Source: a virus
Lineage: Duplodnaviria > Heunggongvirae > Uroviricota > Caudoviricetes
Virus record (IMG/VR): IMGVR_UViG_3300029181_000143
Length of the DNA stretch: 20,408 nucleotides
Direction: 5' to 3' (one strand)
This document shows, in pieces, positions 1,640-14,964 of this stretch. A program made the translations under genes and the position numbers. Numbering within the stretch: the first letter of the stretch is position 1; each line of letters opens with the position of its first letter. The notes under the pieces are model-generated. The model searched no databases. It saw only the letters and a list, made by a program, of their open reading frames with translations, and had not been told where the DNA came from.

Positions 1640-4111
1640 TTAAGAATCAGCCTGACTCGGGATCAGTTTTTGCCAGATAACTGAAACGTATTTTGCCTGG
1701 TAACGGGCGTCATCAAGTGCATTATGGCGCTCACCTTCGAATGGAATAGCCGTTCTGGCATCGAAGTCTATGGCTTTCCCCAGCTCAACGATTGTGCGTA
1801 CATCGCGATCGTTGTAGTAACGCCACGGGCAGGGGATCCCCTGCCGTTCGTATGAACGGCGCAAAATCGTGTTGTCGAAGTTGGCTCCATTTCCCCAAAC
1901 CTGAACAAAAAATTCACCGGAGTTTTCGTCGATAAATTCCCGCAATTGTAACAGTGCATCATCTAACGGGATTTCATCGGTCATAATGGCCGATTGCGCT
2001 TCGCGTGATTGCTTAAGCCACCATTTAATGGTGTCCCGATCAATGACTCCGCCAGCAGTTTCCAGATCGATAGTCTTACTAAATTCCGGTCCCATATCTC
2101 CGGTTTGCGGATCGAAAAATATTGCACCTATTGAGATGATCGGGGCATCAGGATTTTTTCCCATGGTTTCAAGGTCGATCATTAGATGGTCACACGTCCT
2201 GCTGGTGGATGTGATTTCGTGATGACCGTTCACCTTAATTGAGTGATCTGCCGTCTCGCCAGTTTCATTATCGCTATCGTGATGCTGATTGCCGCCAGCG
2301 TTCTCCTTGTGTGGATGTTCAGCGCCTTCCATTTCCTCCGGATCATCTTCCTGAACTTCAACCTGATACTCTTCATCGAATGTTTCTTGGTATGTTGCGT
2401 CGCCCATCACCGCGCCACAATCAGGGCAGTTGCCGCCGCCGGTCTGACCGCAGGCGGTGCAGACTTTTTCCACTTCCTGTTGCGCCACTGATTCAGGCTG
2501 TTTCGTTTCTGGCTCGTTTTGTAACGCATTTGGGCTGTTTTGTTCCGCTTTTTGGTAGTTCCGTTCCGATTCATGCTGGTTCTGGTTCACAGAATCGCGG
2601 GTCTGGATCCCCTTAACCCATTTCGGATCATTCGGGTCACTAATCCCTTCAACAAATTCACCACGTGATGCAGCAAGCAACTTATCGGCGTCAGGCTGGC
2701 TGATATTGGCTGCCTGCATAATTTTGTTTACTTCGTCAGCGGTAACTTTTATCGGCTCTGGTTGTTCTGAATCTTCAGCGGTATCTACATTTTGCGGTAA
2801 GCCCGTGTATGTGCCATTTTTTCGGGCAAAATATTCTTCTTTTGTGATTTCAGTGGCGCCAGCAGCCAGTGCCTTATCCAGACCAGAAAGTTTGTTTGCG
2901 CGACCGTATTTTTCTCCGTCCTTATCTGCGAAGAGGAAATAGAACGGCCCCTCACGCTCTACAGATGGTTCAGCTTCCGGTGCGGTTTCATTTTTTGGGA
3001 TATCAGATACCTCAGTTTCCACTGCATCAGTTTGTGTTTCTGATGACTTGAGAACATCAACAGTGCCCAGGTCTGTTTCTTCATTCTCAAACACGCCCTT
3101 TGTCGTCAGGTATTCGCAGATATATTTGTTCAGTGCTACGGGATCTTTGTGAATGTCGATCGGACGCTCACGGACAAGGCCAAAAATAGTTTGGCGGTCG
3201 TAGCGAAGGGCATCAGGCTGTTTGCGTATTGATGCCGAGATACGCTTCCAGTCTTCGCGGTCGTTGTCGATAACTTCATTTTTTGCCCAGCGATGGATGC
3301 TGCTGTCAATGTTTCCGGCATCCACATCACCAGGCCAGAGAGCGTAGGCCAGTTCGTCATCCAGTGTTTTCCATGTCTGCTTGTATTCGCGATGAATGGC
3401 AGCAATGACCGGGCTGATTTTTCCTGTTGAATTTTCAGTGTACTGTTGATTGGCTCTGGCGCGGGCGAGATCAACAACAGACGTGTATTTTCCGGTTTCC
3501 TTGCGTTCACCTTCGCGACGTTTTTTCCAGATGCGCATCTCTGCCTGAATTTCGGGCCATTTAGCACCAGGAATACATTTATGCTTAACCCACCCAATGG
3601 CGTGCAACTTAAGCTCCGGATACATGGCGTTAACTTCTGGCATTTTCATCAACGCTTCAACGATATGTCCGTTGAATGTTGCCATGTCTTCCTGCAACAA
3701 TTCCTGTGCGCTAATAACCATATCAACGGTGATGTTTTCACATGTGTCGAACTTAACCATGACAGCGTTCTGTACTTCAGGGGCCAGCTTGTCAAAAGTG
3801 ACGTTCATCGGATCGGATTCAGTCTCAACCGGGACAAAAGAAGCAGACTCCTCATCCCAGCGGTTTTCCTGCATATATTCAGCATCCCATGAATCGAGGG
3901 CAGGGCGGGGTATACCAGGTTTATCCTCGCAGACAATAAATTTATAAGCGCAGTCCTGAGCAGCCGGATAATGTTCCAGGAATTGCCAGTGAAATTTTGC
4001 TCGAGCACGGCGTTCGTCGCCAGCTTCAATGGCTGTGGCTACAGCCACAGCGCCTTCTTCCCTTGTTGCCAGTTCGTCAGGAATAGCGGCGCAAATAAAG
4101 ACTTTACTCAT
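1640..4111 (-). CDS. 823-aa putative exonuclease: RecE-like N-terminal and central region with a C-terminal DnaQ-like DEDDh 3'-5' exonuclease domain
   Basis: Long intact ORF with a GAGG Shine-Dalgarno. The C-terminus carries Exo I (MIDLETMG), Exo II (VWGNGANFDNT) and Exo III (HNALDDARYQ) motifs. A central CxxC-x7-CxxC (CTACGQTGGGNCPDCG) and acidic linkers are present. The N-terminal segment matches what I recall of YdfE/RecE-family proteins. Confidence 0.8.
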   Translation of the reverse strand: MSKVFICAAIPDELATREEGAVAVATAIEAGDERRARAKFHWQFLEHYPAAQDCAYKFIVCEDKPGIPRPALDSWDAEYMQENRWDEESASFVPVETESDPMNVTFDKLAPEVQNAVMVKFDTCENITVDMVISAQELLQEDMATFNGHIVEALMKMPEVNAMYPELKLHAIGWVKHKCIPGAKWPEIQAEMRIWKKRREGERKETGKYTSVVDLARARANQQYTENSTGKISPVIAAIHREYKQTWKTLDDELAYALWPGDVDAGNIDSSIHRWAKNEVIDNDREDWKRISASIRKQPDALRYDRQTIFGLVRERPIDIHKDPVALNKYICEYLTTKGVFENEETDLGTVDVLKSSETQTDAVETEVSDIPKNETAPEAEPSVEREGPFYFLFADKDGEKYGRANKLSGLDKALAAGATEITKEEYFARKNGTYTGLPQNVDTAEDSEQPEPIKVTADEVNKIMQAANISQPDADKLLAASRGEFVEGISDPNDPKWVKGIQTRDSVNQNQHESERNYQKAEQNSPNALQNEPETKQPESVAQQEVEKVCTACGQTGGGNCPDCGAVMGDATYQETFDEEYQVEVQEDDPEEMEGAEHPHKENAGGNQHHDSDNETGETADHSIKVNGHHEITSTSRTCDHLMIDLETMGKNPDAPIISIGAIFFDPQTGDMGPEFSKTIDLETAGGVIDRDTIKWWLKQSREAQSAIMTDEIPLDDALLQLREFIDENSGEFFVQVWGNGANFDNTILRRSYERQGIPCPWRYYNDRDVRTIVELGKAIDFDARTAIPFEGERHNALDDARYQAKYVSVIWQKLIPSQADS

Positions 4112-12402: not shown

Positions 12403-12432
12403 AACCCGCTTCGGCGGGTTTTTGTTTTTATT
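12403..12432 (+). terminator. Rho-independent terminator after hokD
   Basis: aaCCCGCttcgGCGGGtttttgtttttatttt: GC stem with a UUCG loop and a T-run. Confidence 0.6.
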
Positions 12433-12550: not shown

Positions 12551-12802
12551 ATGATGAACATCGAAGAACTGCGTAAAATTTTTTGTGAAGATGGCCTCTA
12601 TGCTGTGTGCGTTGAAAATGGAAATCTTGTTAGTCATTACCGCATTATGTGTTTGCGAAAGAATGGGGCTGCGTTAATTAATTTTGTGGATGCTCGGGTC
12701 ACGGACGGATTTATCTTGCGCGAAGGTGAGTTTGTCACTTCATTACAGGCATTGAAAGAGATCGGAATAAAAGCTGGCTTTTCTGCTTTTTCAGGAGAAT
12801 AA
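12551..12802 (+). CDS. rem: Rem-like prophage protein (83 aa)
   Basis: An 83-aa ORF in the position of rem (between hokD and ydfU) in Qin gene order. Confidence 0.65.
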   Translation: MMNIEELRKIFCEDGLYAVCVENGNLVSHYRIMCLRKNGAALINFVDARVTDGFILREGEFVTSLQALKEIGIKAGFSAFSGE

Positions 12803-12868
12803 ACTCATCTACAATCTTGCGCGGGGCTGAACTCCCGCTGAGTAACACCGTGCCACCGGAGAAAACCG

Positions 12869-13147
12869 ATGGCACGCAACGCAAAATATTACAATTCTGA
12901 TAATTCGCCCGTTCTTGCCTGCACGCACGGGCGGTATTCTCACGCATTCAAGTCTGAATGGTTCCAGCACCCTCCATGCACTGCAGAACAGGCCGAATGG
13001 CTGATTCATTCTTACCGCAGGCGCGGGTTCGAGGTTAAGAAAGCTCTCAGTCTCGACTATCGGCACTGGATAATCTCTGTCAGGCTGCCTTATTCCGAAC
13101 GCCCACCACGTGCGTCCCGCACTTTCCAGCAACGGATCTGGAGGTAA
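12869..13147 (+). CDS. Basic 92-aa hypothetical protein translationally coupled to ydfU
   Basis: GGAG Shine-Dalgarno 8 nt upstream of its ATG. Its TAA (13145..13147) sits inside the GGAGG Shine-Dalgarno of the downstream GTG start. Confidence 0.45.
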   Translation: MARNAKYYNSDNSPVLACTHGRYSHAFKSEWFQHPPCTAEQAEWLIHSYRRRGFEVKKALSLDYRHWIISVRLPYSERPPRASRTFQQRIWR

Positions 13148-13148
13148 C

Positions 13149-14198
13149 GTGCGGGTATTACTTAGACCTGTTCTGGTGCCTGAGCTTGGGCTGGTGGTCC
13201 TTAAGCCGGGCCGTGAATCCATACAGATATTTCATAATCCTCGAGTGCTGGTGGAACCGGAACCAAAAAGCATGCGTAATCTGCCATCCGGAGTCGTTCC
13301 TGCCGTTCGCCAGCCGCTGGCGGAAGACAAAACATTGCTGCCGTTTTTTAGTAACGAACGGGTGATTCGTGCTGCTGGCGGCGTTGGCGCATTGTCCGAC
13401 TGGCTATTACGTCATGTTACATCCTGCCAGTGGCCTAATGGCGATTACCATCACACTGAAACAGTCATTCACCGTTATGGTACCGGCGCAATGGTGTTGT
13501 GCTGGCACTGCGACAACCAACTGCGTGACCAGACATCGGAATCACTGGAGCTGCTTGCTCAACAAAATCTGACAGCATGGGTGATTGACGTCATCCGTCA
13601 CGCAATAAGCGGTACGCAGGAGCGGGAATTATCTTTGGCTGAATTATCCTGGTGGGCGGTCTGCAATCAGGTGGTGGATGCACTACCTGAGGCTGTATCG
13701 CGTCGTTCGCTGGGATTACCAGCGGAAAAAATCTGCTCGGTGTACCGCGAAAGCGACATCGTACCGGGAGAGCAGACCGCCACCAGCATATTGAAACAAC
13801 GCACAAAAAATCTTGCACCGTTGCCTTACGCCCACCAGCAACAAAAATCACCACAGGAAAAGACGGTGGTAAGCATCACCGTTGATCCAGAGTCTCCGGA
13901 ATCTTTCATGAAGCTGCCTAAACGTCGCCGCTGGGTTAAGGAGAAATACACACGTTGGGTTAAGACACAGCCGTGTGCTTGCTGCGGTATGCCAGCCGAC
14001 GATCCGCATCATCTGATTGGTCACGGGCAGGGCGGAATGGGAACAAAAGCACATGATCTCTTTGTGTTGCCTTTGTGCAGAAAGCATCACAACGAGCTGC
14101 ATACGGATACAGTGGCATTTGAAGATAAGTATGGCTCCCAACTGGAGCTGATATTTCGTTTTATCGATCGCGCGCTGGCAATTGGCGTACTGGCGTAA
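13149..14198 (+). CDS. ydfU: YdfU (DUF968) protein with a C-terminal HNH-like motif, 349 aa from a GTG start
   Basis: C-terminus CACCGMPADDPHHLIGHG...LCRKHHNELH resembles an HNH / His-Me finger. GGAGG Shine-Dalgarno 5 nt upstream of GTG 13149. The ORF track extends to 13110, but the 349-aa length matches recalled YdfU. Confidence 0.75.
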   Translation: MRVLLRPVLVPELGLVVLKPGRESIQIFHNPRVLVEPEPKSMRNLPSGVVPAVRQPLAEDKTLLPFFSNERVIRAAGGVGALSDWLLRHVTSCQWPNGDYHHTETVIHRYGTGAMVLCWHCDNQLRDQTSESLELLAQQNLTAWVIDVIRHAISGTQERELSLAELSWWAVCNQVVDALPEAVSRRSLGLPAEKICSVYRESDIVPGEQTATSILKQRTKNLAPLPYAHQQQKSPQEKTVVSITVDPESPESFMKLPKRRRWVKEKYTRWVKTQPCACCGMPADDPHHLIGHGQGGMGTKAHDLFVLPLCRKHHNELHTDTVAFEDKYGSQLELIFRFIDRALAIGVLA

Positions 14199-14211
14199 GT
14201 GGAGAACGAGC

Positions 14212-14964
14212 ATGAACCTTGAAGCCTTACCAAAATATTACTCCCCAAAATCTCCAAAATTGAGCGATGACGCTCCAGCGACAGGCACCGGTTGTTTAAC
14301 AATTACGGATGTAATGGCAGCGCAGGGGATGGTGCAGTCGAAAGCACCACTTGGGTTGGCCTTATTTCTGGCAAAAGTTGGTGTTCAGGACCCTCAGTTT
14401 GCGATTGAAGGCCTGCTAAATTACGCGATGGCACTGGATAACCCGACATTGAACAAATTGAGTGAAGAAATCCGGTTACAGATTATTCCTTACCTCGTGA
14501 GTTTTGCCTTTGCTGATTACTCCAGGTCTGCGGCAAGTAAGGCTCGCTGTGAGCATTGTTCAGGTACGGGATTTTATAATGTATTGCGCGAAGTGGTGAA
14601 ACACTACAGACGCGGGGAATCTGTAATCAAGGAAGAATGGGTGAAGGAACTATGTCAGCATTGCCATGGTAAGGGCGAAGCCAGCACAGCGTGCAGAGGG
14701 TGTAAGGGTAAAGGGATTGTTCTGGATGAAAAAAGAACCCGGTTTCATGGCGTACCGGTATATAAGATTTGTGGGCGTTGTAATGGAAACCGGTTTAGTC
14801 GTTTACCGACCACGCTGGCACGACGTCATGTCCAGAAGCTGGTACCAGACCTGACCGATTATCAGTGGTATAAGGGGTATGCGGACGTCATTGGTAAACT
14901 GGTAACAAAGTGCTGGCAGGAAGAAGCATACGCGGAAGCGCAATTGAGGAAGGTGACGAGATAA
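14212..14964 (+). CDS. quuQ: Q-family late-gene antiterminator (250 aa)
   Basis: Translation from MNLEALPKYYSPKSP... contains a Cys-rich zinc-binding region (CEHCSGTG...CQHCHGKG...CRGCKGKG...CGRCNG). It lies upstream of a late-promoter-like element. Confidence 0.85.
   Translation: MNLEALPKYYSPKSPKLSDDAPATGTGCLTITDVMAAQGMVQSKAPLGLALFLAKVGVQDPQFAIEGLLNYAMALDNPTLNKLSEEIRLQIIPYLVSFAFADYSRSAASKARCEHCSGTGFYNVLREVVKHYRRGESVIKEEWVKELCQHCHGKGEASTACRGCKGKGIVLDEKRTRFHGVPVYKICGRCNGNRFSRLPTTLARRHVQKLVPDLTDYQWYKGYADVIGKLVTKCWQEEAYAEAQLRKVTR

What the first reader, a model, noticed from the sequence alone, without database searches (positions are those of the whole stretch)
12869..14198. Basic 92-aa ORF translationally coupled to the HNH-motif protein YdfU
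The small ORF's stop lies within the GGAGG Shine-Dalgarno of ydfU's GTG start, only 1 nt before the GTG. YdfU's C-terminus looks like a His-Me finger nuclease. The pair sits just upstream of the Q antiterminator, where lambdoid phages carry NinG/NinH-type genes, so it could be a nuclease with a small DNA-binding partner. As far as I recall, the small ORF is not annotated in K-12.
Basis: inference. Interest (0 to 1): 0.45.

Follow-up and report, generated by a model that had tools for sequence, protein, structure and literature searches.

The report
Conserved small phage gene before ydfU
The 92-codon reading frame just upstream of ydfU in the E. coli K-12 Qin prophage is a real, conserved phage gene of unknown function that the reference K-12 annotation omits, and it sits tightly against a known HNH-type nuclease gene; this is a useful annotation fix but not a new kind of system.

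Summary
Window 12869-13147 (+) is a basic 92-aa ORF. Its TAA follows a GGAGG and lies 1 nt before the GTG of ydfU (13149-14198). The curated MG1655 record has no gene there, but NCBI's pipeline annotates it in other K-12 genomes (WP_012304870.1).

The frame is open in all 25 alleles examined. Its 66-aa core is under strong purifying selection (dN/dS 0.07-0.25), while the 26-aa N-terminal extension is weakly constrained and predicted disordered. The protein belongs to phrog_1212, a small Enterobacterales-phage family with no Pfam match and no informative fold match.

The idea of a dedicated nuclease partner is only weakly supported. In 52 loci the small gene precedes NinG (19), RusA (12, not HNH), YbcO-type HNH (10) or DUF968 (7), usually after a DUF1367/NinB-like gene. 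YdfU paralogs and most DUF1367 phages lack it. What is conserved is its slot in the nin-type recombination module, plus a 3' end (TGG-A/GGG-stop) that serves as the ribosome-binding site of whichever nuclease gene follows.

Verdict: known hypothetical gene, known nuclease, modest interest.

The parts
12858..12861 (+). GGAG Shine-Dalgarno of the small ORF, 7 nt before its ATG
   Evidence: Read directly from the sequence. It is present in the K-12 and O157 alleles and weaker in other alleles.
12869..13147 (+). Small ORF, 92 aa plus TAA. It is a member of phrog_1212 and identical to RefSeq WP_012304870.1. It is not annotated in NC_000913.3, where it would be complement(1644306..1644584).
   Evidence: The frame is open in 25 of 25 alleles. 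Whole-gene dN/dS is 0.10-0.41.
12869..12946 (+). Codons 1-26: an N-terminal extension specific to the Escherichia lineage. It is weakly constrained and predicted disordered.
   Evidence: dN/dS is 0.3-1.1 and variable columns by codon position are 14/15/13. A 2-codon indel occurs in one allele. pLDDT is below 50 for residues 1-21. The extension is absent from the 66-aa members in other genera.
12947..13144 (+). Codons 27-92: the conserved core of the family. Predicted elements are beta 28-33, alpha 39-52, beta 56-60, beta 67-75 and a basic tail with helix 84-91. W91 is invariant.
   Evidence: The phrog_1212 match covers residues 27-92 with E 1.7e-35. dN/dS is 0.07-0.25 and variable columns are 9/12/39. 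AF2 pLDDT is mostly above 90. Alignment A2.
13140..13144 (+). GGAGG Shine-Dalgarno of ydfU, formed by the last two sense codons (TGG AGG) of the small ORF
   Evidence: Across the family the gene ends TGG-(A/G)GG-stop, and the next gene starts 1-4 nt later or overlaps, whatever that gene encodes.
13145..13151 (+). Coupling junction: TAA stop (13145-13147), one C (13148), GTG start of ydfU (13149-13151)
   Evidence: The junction is identical in five loci at 77-90% protein identity.
13149..14198 (+). ydfU, 349 aa, DUF968 protein
   Evidence: PF06147 with E 1.4e-76 and phrog_96 'HNH endonuclease' with E 2.8e-171. Annotated as b1560.
13314..13718 (+). YdfU residues 56-190: a confidently modelled helical domain of unknown fold family. 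It has a beta-beta-alpha element at 105-125 and invariant C93, H101, C118 and C121, which may form a zinc site.
   Evidence: AF2 model and invariant columns. There is no significant match to Orf/NinB, DUF1367 or YdfU's own HNH domain.
13731..13883 (+). YdfU residues 195-245: a low-confidence linker. A mosaic recombination joint lies at about 13899, just after it.
   Evidence: pLDDT is below 50. Many megablast hits end at query position 1360, which is window 13899.
13896..14195 (+). YdfU residues 250-349: the HNH/His-Me finger nuclease domain. The motif is C276-x2-C279 ... D285-x-H287-H288 ... C310-x3-H314 ... H318, encoded at nt 13974-14102.
14212..14964 (+). ydfT (quuQ), the Q-type antiterminator immediately downstream. 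It marks the end of the nin-like region.
   Evidence: PF03589 with E 3.6e-54. Annotation.
12551..12802 (+). rem, the upstream neighbour in K-12. It is not part of the module, because a mosaic joint at about 12852 separates it from the small ORF.
   Evidence: rem is replaced by other genes in most loci that carry the small ORF.

Best explanation
The 92-aa ORF is a genuine protein-coding phage gene. It consists of the 66-aa phrog_1212 core plus a weakly constrained, disordered N-terminal extension found in the Escherichia lineage.

It belongs to the nin-type recombination block that lies between the replication genes and Q in lambdoid prophages. In relatives the order is: Orf/NinB-like mediator (DUF1367 or YbcN), then the small gene, then a junction- or branch-processing nuclease (NinG, RusA, YbcO-type HNH or DUF968), then Q. 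In Qin the following nuclease is YdfU, whose C-terminal domain is a Ref/YbcO-like HNH (His-Me finger) nuclease.

The last two sense codons of the small gene (TGG AGG) form the Shine-Dalgarno of ydfU, and its stop lies 1 nt before the GTG. Ribosomes finishing the small ORF are therefore expected to reinitiate on ydfU, so the nuclease would be made only when, and in proportion to how much, the small ORF is translated. This coupling is inferred from the sequence arrangement, not shown.

The protein itself is most likely a small, usually basic accessory factor of phage recombination or late replication. It may bind DNA or another recombination protein. It is facultative and not specific to HNH enzymes, so it is not an obligatory nuclease subunit.

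Shown: coding status, conservation, gene order, junction anatomy, and the HNH fold of YdfU. Inferred: translational coupling, and any biochemical role of the small protein.
For: Coding status:
- The frame is open in 25/25 alleles.
- Core dN/dS is 0.07-0.25, with variable columns 9/12/39 by codon position. The last 23 codons give 2/1/12, meaning an invariant protein with many synonymous changes.
- All other frames contain stops in homologs.

Family:
- phrog_1212, E 1.7e-35.
- 129 clusters at 90% identity, and only 60 representatives at 50% identity among 1.84 billion proteins.
- Homologs occur in Gifsy-1/2, mEp237, phiES15, PY54, N15 (Orf QD1), GF-2 and Klebsiella phages.

Context in 52 loci:
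- Upstream gene: DUF1367 in 37 and YbcN in 1.
- Downstream gene: NinG 19, RusA 12, YbcO-type HNH 10, DUF968 7.
- Intergenic distances run from -25 to +5 nt in most loci.

Junction:
- TGG-(A/G)GG-stop followed by a start 1-4 nt later, regardless of the downstream family.
- Stop-1 nt-GTG in five diverged E. coli loci, and a TGATG overlap in Klebsiella.

Module linkage:
- In E. coli the homology blocks start about 17 nt upstream of the small ORF and run into ydfU.
- Divergent 90/92-aa alleles are again followed by DUF968 at a 1-nt gap.

YdfU nuclease; PMC5714182.

Charge: family median pI is 9.7.
Against: - No expression or protein evidence was found for K-12. The literature and accession searches were empty.
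- A strong Rho-dependent terminator has been reported upstream of ydfU: ydfU is derepressed in rho/nusG mutants and rem is not (PMC9160355). The region is C>G rich. This suggests that in the resident prophage this stretch may be poorly translated.
- Tight spacing of genes is common in phage operons, so the coupling arrangement is not evidence of a functional partnership.
- A few family members are not basic (pI 6.6-8.2).
Confidence: 0.6

Rival explanations
1. Dedicated partner: the small basic protein is a DNA-binding or regulatory subunit that physically works with the YdfU HNH nuclease. The two are made in fixed proportion through translational coupling.
For: - The stop-1 nt-GTG junction with the SD inside the small ORF is conserved.
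- In E. coli the small ORF and the N-terminal 250 codons of ydfU always travel as one block.
- One natural in-frame fusion, small::YdfU, exists (P0174).
- The protein is basic.
- In 36 of 52 loci the downstream gene is a His-Me finger nuclease: NinG, YbcO-type or DUF968.
Against: - In 12 of 52 loci the downstream gene is RusA, which has a different fold and mechanism.
- The downstream nuclease family changes while the small gene stays the same.
- A full-length YdfU paralog (57% identity) sits behind a KilA-N gene with no small-gene homolog within 3 kb.
- The P0174 fusion is a single record with one member sequence.
- No complex prediction or binding data could be obtained with these tools.
Confidence: 0.15
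2. Unrelated accessory gene: the small protein acts on something other than the phage's own recombination enzymes, for example a host protein or a defence or exclusion function. It merely occupies a permissive slot in the nin region, and its tight spacing reflects ordinary phage operon packing.
For: - The family is narrow (Enterobacterales only, 60 representatives) and facultative.
- DUF1367/NinB-like genes occur in 320 phage records, against about 55-60 records for the small gene.
- Lambda and DLP12 nin regions lack it.
- In N15/PY54-type phages it lies in a different context, after an RdgC-like gene and before an unknown ORF with a 48-nt gap.
- Some GenBank records label it 'toxin to Rem'.
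Against: - Its position between an Orf-like mediator and a junction nuclease is strikingly constant: 38/52 upstream and 48/52 downstream.
- There are no PADLOC defence-system hits.
- The 'toxin to Rem' label has no literature behind it, and rem is absent from most loci that carry the gene.
Confidence: 0.22
3. Mainly an RNA-level element: the rem-ydfU spacer is the Rho-dependent terminator (nin-type tR) that keeps ydfU and Q silent, and the ORF is incidental.
For: - A Rho-dependent terminator upstream of ydfU has been reported, ranked among the strongest prophage terminators (PMC9160355).
- C/G ratios reach 1.8 across 12800-13150, in a window whose overall composition is G>C.
- The curated MG1655 annotation treats the stretch as non-coding.
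Against: - Protein-level purifying selection cannot be explained by an RNA element: dN/dS is 0.07-0.25, with abundant synonymous change over an invariant C-terminal peptide.
- Homologs down to 35-45% protein identity keep the same 66-aa protein in other genera.
- The two roles are not exclusive. An untranslated ORF is a natural Rho entry site.
Confidence: 0.03

Closest known systems
phrog_1212 / RefSeq WP_012304870.1 and WP_010917803.1 (hypothetical proteins; homologs Gifsy-2 STM1021.1n, mEp237 gp51, PY54 ORF47, N15 Orf QD1)
   Same: The small ORF is this family. It is identical to WP_012304870.1, and the phrog_1212 match over residues 27-92 has E 1.7e-35. It shares the 66-aa core and the invariant Trp.
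   Different: The Escherichia alleles carry a 24-26-aa N-terminal extension that the 66-aa members lack. No member has a described function.
Lambda NinG(Rap)/NinH pair and the small Nin proteins (NinD, NinE, NinF)
   Same: The genomic slot is the same: small genes packed around a branch-specific His-Me nuclease just upstream of Q. In DLP12, NinE occupies the equivalent position between YbcN and YbcO.
   Different: There is no detectable homology. hhalign probabilities are below 1% against NinB, D, E, F, G, H and Ren, and no Pfam Nin family is hit by any of 34 members. The predicted fold is beta-alpha-beta-beta plus a helix, not the Fis-like helix-turn-helix of NinH (PMC7166090). NinH lies downstream of NinG, whereas this gene lies upstream of the nuclease.
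His-Me finger group 7 (DUF968 + DUF1364/YbcO, PDB 3g27) and P1 Ref (RecA-dependent HNH nuclease, PDB 3plw)
   Different: YdfU has an extra 250-residue N-terminal part of unknown fold family. It is not detectably Orf-like, unlike the Gram-positive 'Orf-HNH' fusions discussed in PMC4118853. No nuclease activity or RecA dependence has been shown for YdfU.
Translationally coupled phage/operon gene pairs (termination-reinitiation)
   Same: The stop codon of the upstream gene lies 1 nt from the start of the downstream gene, and the SD is embedded in the upstream coding sequence. This arrangement is conserved across genera.
   Different: Here the SD-bearing 3' end belongs to the small gene and is reused with four unrelated downstream genes. 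The coupling itself has not been measured.

Membership tests
Protein-coding gene (versus a chance ORF) | Reading frame intact in diverged homologs | tested here: met
   25/25 distinct alleles are open, and the one indel is 6 nt. All other frames have stops in homologs.
Protein-coding gene (versus a chance ORF) | Purifying selection at the protein level (dN/dS well below 1, with an excess of third-position changes) | tested here: met
   Core dN/dS is 0.07-0.25 with variable columns 9/12/39. The N-terminal 26 codons are only weakly constrained (0.3-1.1; 14/15/13).
Protein-coding gene (versus a chance ORF) | Evidence of translation or of the protein product | not testable with these tools
   No Ribo-seq or proteomics data were available. 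Literature searches by accession and coordinate found nothing.
phrog_1212 | Significant full-length match to the family profile | tested here: met
   E 1.7e-35, residues 27-92 against profile positions 1-66 of 66.
HNH / His-Me finger nuclease (YdfU C-terminus) | Profile match to a His-Me finger family | tested here: met
   PF06147 DUF968 scores 256.8 bits against a cutoff of 27.8. HNHc_6 scores 26.3 bits, just under its 26.6 cutoff. phrog_96 'HNH endonuclease' has E 2.8e-171. DUF968 is classified as His-Me finger group 7 in PMC5714182.
HNH / His-Me finger nuclease (YdfU C-terminus) | Beta-beta-alpha-metal fold | tested here: met
HNH / His-Me finger nuclease (YdfU C-terminus) | Conserved catalytic His and metal/zinc ligands | tested here: met
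   C276, C279, D284, D285, H287, H288, D303, C310, H314 and H318 are invariant in 57 homologs.
HNH / His-Me finger nuclease (YdfU C-terminus) | Nuclease activity | not testable with these tools
   No biochemical data were found for YdfU.
NinH-type (Fis-like) small DNA-binding protein | Sequence homology to NinH and a helix-turn-helix fold | tested here: not met
   hhalign probability is 0.2%. The model is beta-alpha-beta-beta-alpha.
NinE / NinF / NinD families | Match to the Pfam or lambda/DLP12 sequences | tested here: not met
   No Nin family is hit by any of 34 members even at E<=10. hhalign probability is at most 0.15%.
Orf/NinB-HNH fusion (as proposed for Gram-positive DUF968/HNHc_6 proteins) | N-terminal domain homologous to Orf/NinB or DUF1367 | tested here: not met
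Translational coupling (termination-reinitiation) | Stop of the upstream ORF within a few nt of the downstream start, with the SD inside the upstream ORF | tested here: met
   The junction is GGAGG-TAA-C-GTG, and the arrangement is conserved.
Translational coupling (termination-reinitiation) | Downstream translation depends on upstream translation | not testable with these tools
   This needs reporter fusions carrying start or stop mutations in the small ORF.
Obligate two-gene nuclease system (small subunit + HNH) | The two genes co-occur consistently, and the partner family is constant | tested here: not met
   Downstream partners are NinG 19, RusA 12, YbcO-type 10, DUF968 7 and none 4. A YdfU paralog occurs without the small gene.
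Toxin-antitoxin or defence system | Match to known defence/TA models, and a fixed pairing with rem | tested here: not met
   There are no PADLOC hits. rem is absent from most loci carrying the gene. The 'toxin to Rem' label is unsupported.

The most novel reading that the evidence does not exclude
phrog_1212 proteins are a general adaptor for phage recombination. In this reading, a 66-aa module is made just before, and in proportion to, whichever junction nuclease follows it (NinG, RusA, YbcO-type HNH or DUF968/YdfU). It recruits or licenses these structurally unrelated nucleases on intermediates prepared by the upstream Orf/NinB-like mediator. Such an adaptor would be a previously unrecognised third component of the lambdoid Orf-Rap/RusA pathway.
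Probability: 0.15. Interest if true: 0.55.

Novelty: already known. Interest (0 to 1): 0.28.

Why it matters
- Annotation: a 92-aa gene under clear purifying selection is missing from the curated reference annotation of E. coli K-12 MG1655 (it would be complement(1644306..1644584), between rem and ydfU). It is already called by PGAP elsewhere, so adding it is a simple, well-supported correction.
- Biology: the work defines a consistent gene-order rule in Enterobacterales lambdoid prophages. An Orf-like mediator is followed by the small phrog_1212 gene, then by a junction nuclease. The small gene's last codons supply the ribosome-binding site for whichever nuclease follows. This gives a concrete handle for testing whether nuclease expression in these prophages is gated by translation of the small ORF, which may tie in with the reported Rho-dependent silencing of ydfU.
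- Limits: none of this changes what is known about HNH nucleases, and the function of the small protein remains open.

Tried and rejected
2. Homology to lambda or DLP12 NinE, NinF, NinD, NinH, NinG, NinB or Ren. hhalign probabilities are below 1%, and there are no Pfam hits for 34 members at E<=10.
4. A duplicated, degenerate HNH in the YdfU N-part ('CQWPNGDYHH...LCWHCDNQL' versus 'CCGMPADDPHH...LCRKHHNEL'). hhalign aligns the two stretches, but with E 0.24 and probability 0.25%. I keep it only as a passing note.
5. The antisense 137-aa ORF 12809-13222(-). It is open only in K-12.
6. Defence or TA role. PADLOC gave no hits, and the 'toxin to Rem' label could not be traced.
7. Small gene as an obligate partner of DUF1367. 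DUF1367 occurs in 320 phage records, many of them Vibrio and Pseudomonas phages, while the small gene occurs in about 55-60, all from Enterobacterales.
The afdb50 fold library was unavailable. Single-sequence PDB searches with YdfU found nothing. The viral-contig scans returned mostly near-identical loci.
Full report
**Where we are.** The window is the E. coli K-12 Qin cryptic prophage. The gene order on the + strand is relB, relE, hokD, rem (12551-12802), the 92-aa ORF (12869-13147), ydfU (13149-14198) and ydfT/quuQ (14212-14964).

**Observation.**
- The ORF runs from ATG 12869 to TAA 13145-13147, with a GGAG 7 nt upstream.
- The junction reads ATC TGG AGG TAA C GTG. The GGAGG (13140-13144) is made by the last two sense codons, the stop follows it, and one base separates the stop from the GTG of ydfU.
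- The protein is basic, with pI 10.2 and net charge +9.
- The curated MG1655 record NC_000913.3 has no feature in the 346 nt between rem and ydfU. PGAP annotates exactly this ORF as hypothetical protein WP_012304870.1 in K-12 derivatives such as XL1-Blue, and annotates homologs in nearly all E. coli genomes listed.

**Is it a gene?** Yes.
- Among 86 copies (25 distinct alleles, down to 77% protein identity) the frame is always open, and the only length change is a 6-nt indel.
- Nei-Gojobori dN/dS for codons 27-92 is 0.07-0.25. Variable alignment columns fall 9/12/39 on codon positions 1/2/3.
- The last 23 codons encode an invariant peptide despite 12 variable third positions.
- Codons 1-26 behave differently: dN/dS is 0.3-1.1 with no third-position excess (14/15/13).
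- All other frames acquire stops in diverged homologs, including the antisense 137-aa ORF at 12809-13222.

**What family?**
- The protein has no Pfam or NCBIfam match. It matches phrog_1212 ('unknown function') over residues 27-92 at E 1.7e-35.
- An exhaustive HMMER scan of 1.84 billion representatives found only 60 clusters at 50% identity. Typical members are 66 aa and come from Enterobacterales phages and prophages: Gifsy-1/2, mEp237, phiES15, SPN3UB, Klebsiella prophages, Edwardsiella GF-2, Erwinia 59, PY54 and N15 Orf QD1.
- The Escherichia alleles alone carry the 24-26-aa N-terminal extension.
- AlphaFold2 with a 34-sequence alignment gives a confident core, with pLDDT above 90 for about residues 30-75. 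The elements are beta 28-33, alpha 39-52, beta 56-60, beta 67-75 and a C-terminal helix 84-91. Residues 1-21 are disordered.
- Weak SH2 hits from a PDB profile search (E about 0.7) are not backed by the fold search.
- Profile comparisons with lambda NinB, D, E, F, G, H and Ren, and with DLP12 NinE, are all negative.

**YdfU.**
- Residues 160-346 match DUF968 (E 1.4e-76). There are sub-threshold hits to HNHc_6 and RecA_dep_nuc. The whole protein matches phrog_96 'HNH endonuclease'.
- In 57 homologs (50-90% identity) the motif C276-x2-C279, D284-D285, H287-H288, D303, C310, H314 and H318 is invariant.
- The AF2 model has three parts: a confident C-terminal domain (about 250-349), a disordered linker (195-245) and a confident helical N-part (56-190).
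- This agrees with the published classification of YdfU and YbcO in His-Me finger group 7 (PMC5714182).
- The N-terminal 250 residues are not detectably Orf/NinB- or DUF1367-like, in contrast to the Gram-positive Orf-HNH fusions discussed in PMC4118853.
- The N-part carries invariant C93, H101, C118 and C121 around a predicted beta-beta-alpha element. This may be a zinc site, but similarity to the protein's own HNH domain is not significant.

**Context.** I compared 52 loci: this window, diverged E. coli prophages, sequenced phages, and 41 species-representative Enterobacteriaceae genomes.
- The gene downstream of the small ORF is NinG in 19 loci, RusA in 12, a YbcO-type small HNH in 10, DUF968 in 7 and something else in 4.
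- The upstream gene is DUF1367 (often annotated NinB/Orf-like) in 37 loci and YbcN in 1.
- Spacing is tight on both sides, mostly -25 to +5 nt.
- Across the family the gene ends TGG-(A/G)GG-stop. The next gene starts 1-4 nt later or overlaps, whatever that gene is. The terminal Trp-Arg/Gly codons thus double as the downstream gene's Shine-Dalgarno.
- The Trp is retained even in PY54, where the next gene is 48 nt away, so it is also constrained at the protein level.
- In E. coli, homology blocks begin about 17 nt upstream of the small ORF and continue into ydfU. They often end at about 13899, the start of the HNH domain. A diverged 90-aa allele is again followed by DUF968 at a 1-nt gap.
- Against an obligate partnership, a full-length YdfU paralog (57% identity) lies behind a KilA-N gene with no small-gene homolog within 3 kb.
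- Lambda and DLP12 nin regions lack the small gene.
- DUF1367-like genes occur in 320 phage records, against about 55-60 for the small gene.

**Interpretation.**
- Firmly supported: this is a real, conserved phage gene in the nin-type recombination block, arranged for translational coupling with the following nuclease gene, and YdfU is an HNH-fold protein.
- Not supported: that the small protein is the dedicated partner of the HNH nuclease. The downstream nuclease family varies and includes RusA, and both neighbours occur without the small gene.
- My best guess is a facultative, usually basic accessory factor acting at the step between an Orf-like mediator and junction processing. The gene's 3' end also serves as the translational entry point for the nuclease.
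- A published Rho-dependent terminator upstream of ydfU fits a picture in which translation of this ORF would also determine whether transcription reaches ydfU and Q in the resident prophage. In that study ydfU was derepressed in rho/nusG mutants and rem was not (PMC9160355), and the RNA across 12800-13150 is C>G rich. This link is inference only.

**Novelty and score.**
- The ORF is already a RefSeq protein and a PHROG family, and homologs are annotated as hypothetical proteins in many phages. YdfU's His-Me finger status was published in 2017.
- The new elements are modest. First, there is a gap in the MG1655 reference annotation. Second, selection differs between the core and the extension. 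Third, there is a conserved slot and coupling rule with interchangeable nucleases.
- Interest is about 0.28.
- The most novel reading not excluded is a general adaptor for unrelated junction nucleases, with probability about 0.15.

Noticed in passing
window 12809-13222 (- strand): A 137-aa antisense ORF covers the whole small ORF. It is open only in the K-12 allele and has 1-2 stops in every diverged homolog, so it is not a gene.
   Followed up: yes
window 13110-13148: K-12 has an in-frame GTG at 13110 that would extend ydfU to 362 aa and overlap the small ORF by 38 nt. Homologs lack this start, and the conserved N-terminus MR(V/A)LL supports GTG 13149.
   Followed up: yes
window ~12852 and ~13899: Many megablast hits share these two end points. 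One lies just upstream of the small ORF's SD. The other is at ydfU codon ~250, the boundary between the disordered linker and the HNH domain. The HNH domain therefore seems to be exchanged separately from the small ORF plus the YdfU N-part.
   Followed up: partly
window 13425-13523 (YdfU residues 93-125): Invariant C93, H101, C118 and C121 surround a predicted beta-beta-alpha element. This may be a second zinc-binding or degenerate His-Me-like motif in the N-terminal part. By eye it resembles the C-terminal HNH motif, but hhalign gives E 0.24.
   Followed up: partly
window 14199-14211: K-12 Qin has only 13 nt between ydfU and ydfT. Most related prophages carry a rusA (Holliday junction resolvase) gene between DUF968 and Q.
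   Followed up: no
window 12800-13150: The RNA is C-rich and G-poor, with C/G up to 1.8, while the whole window is G>C. A JBC 2022 study lists a very strong Rho-dependent terminator upstream of ydfU, with ydfU but not rem derepressed in rho/nusG mutants. The exact terminator position was not given in the text I could read.
   Followed up: partly
L222 (ON470583.1) 1801-2079 and similar GenBank phage records: The small ORF homolog is labelled 'toxin to Rem' in a few deposited phage genomes. No literature basis was found, and that locus has no rem gene.
   Followed up: partly
P0174 (438 aa); also P0173, P0179, P0279: One database record encodes an in-frame fusion of the small protein to YdfU (...FQQR|MRVLL...). 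Several other records show internal tandem duplications within ydfU homologs. All are single records and may be assembly or mutation artefacts.
   Followed up: no
window 12821-12838: A hairpin, GCGGGG-CTGAA-CTCCCGC, lies in the rem to small-ORF spacer without a T-tract. It was not called as an intrinsic terminator by the scan. A canonical terminator-like hairpin with a T-run lies after hokD at 12403-12420.
   Followed up: no
L216/L217 (E. coli DX6, PCP06235) 2326-3315: A second YdfU-like lineage (329 aa, 57% identity, same domain layout) occurs in a different prophage type. It lies behind RusA and a KilA-N gene, without the small ORF.
   Followed up: yes
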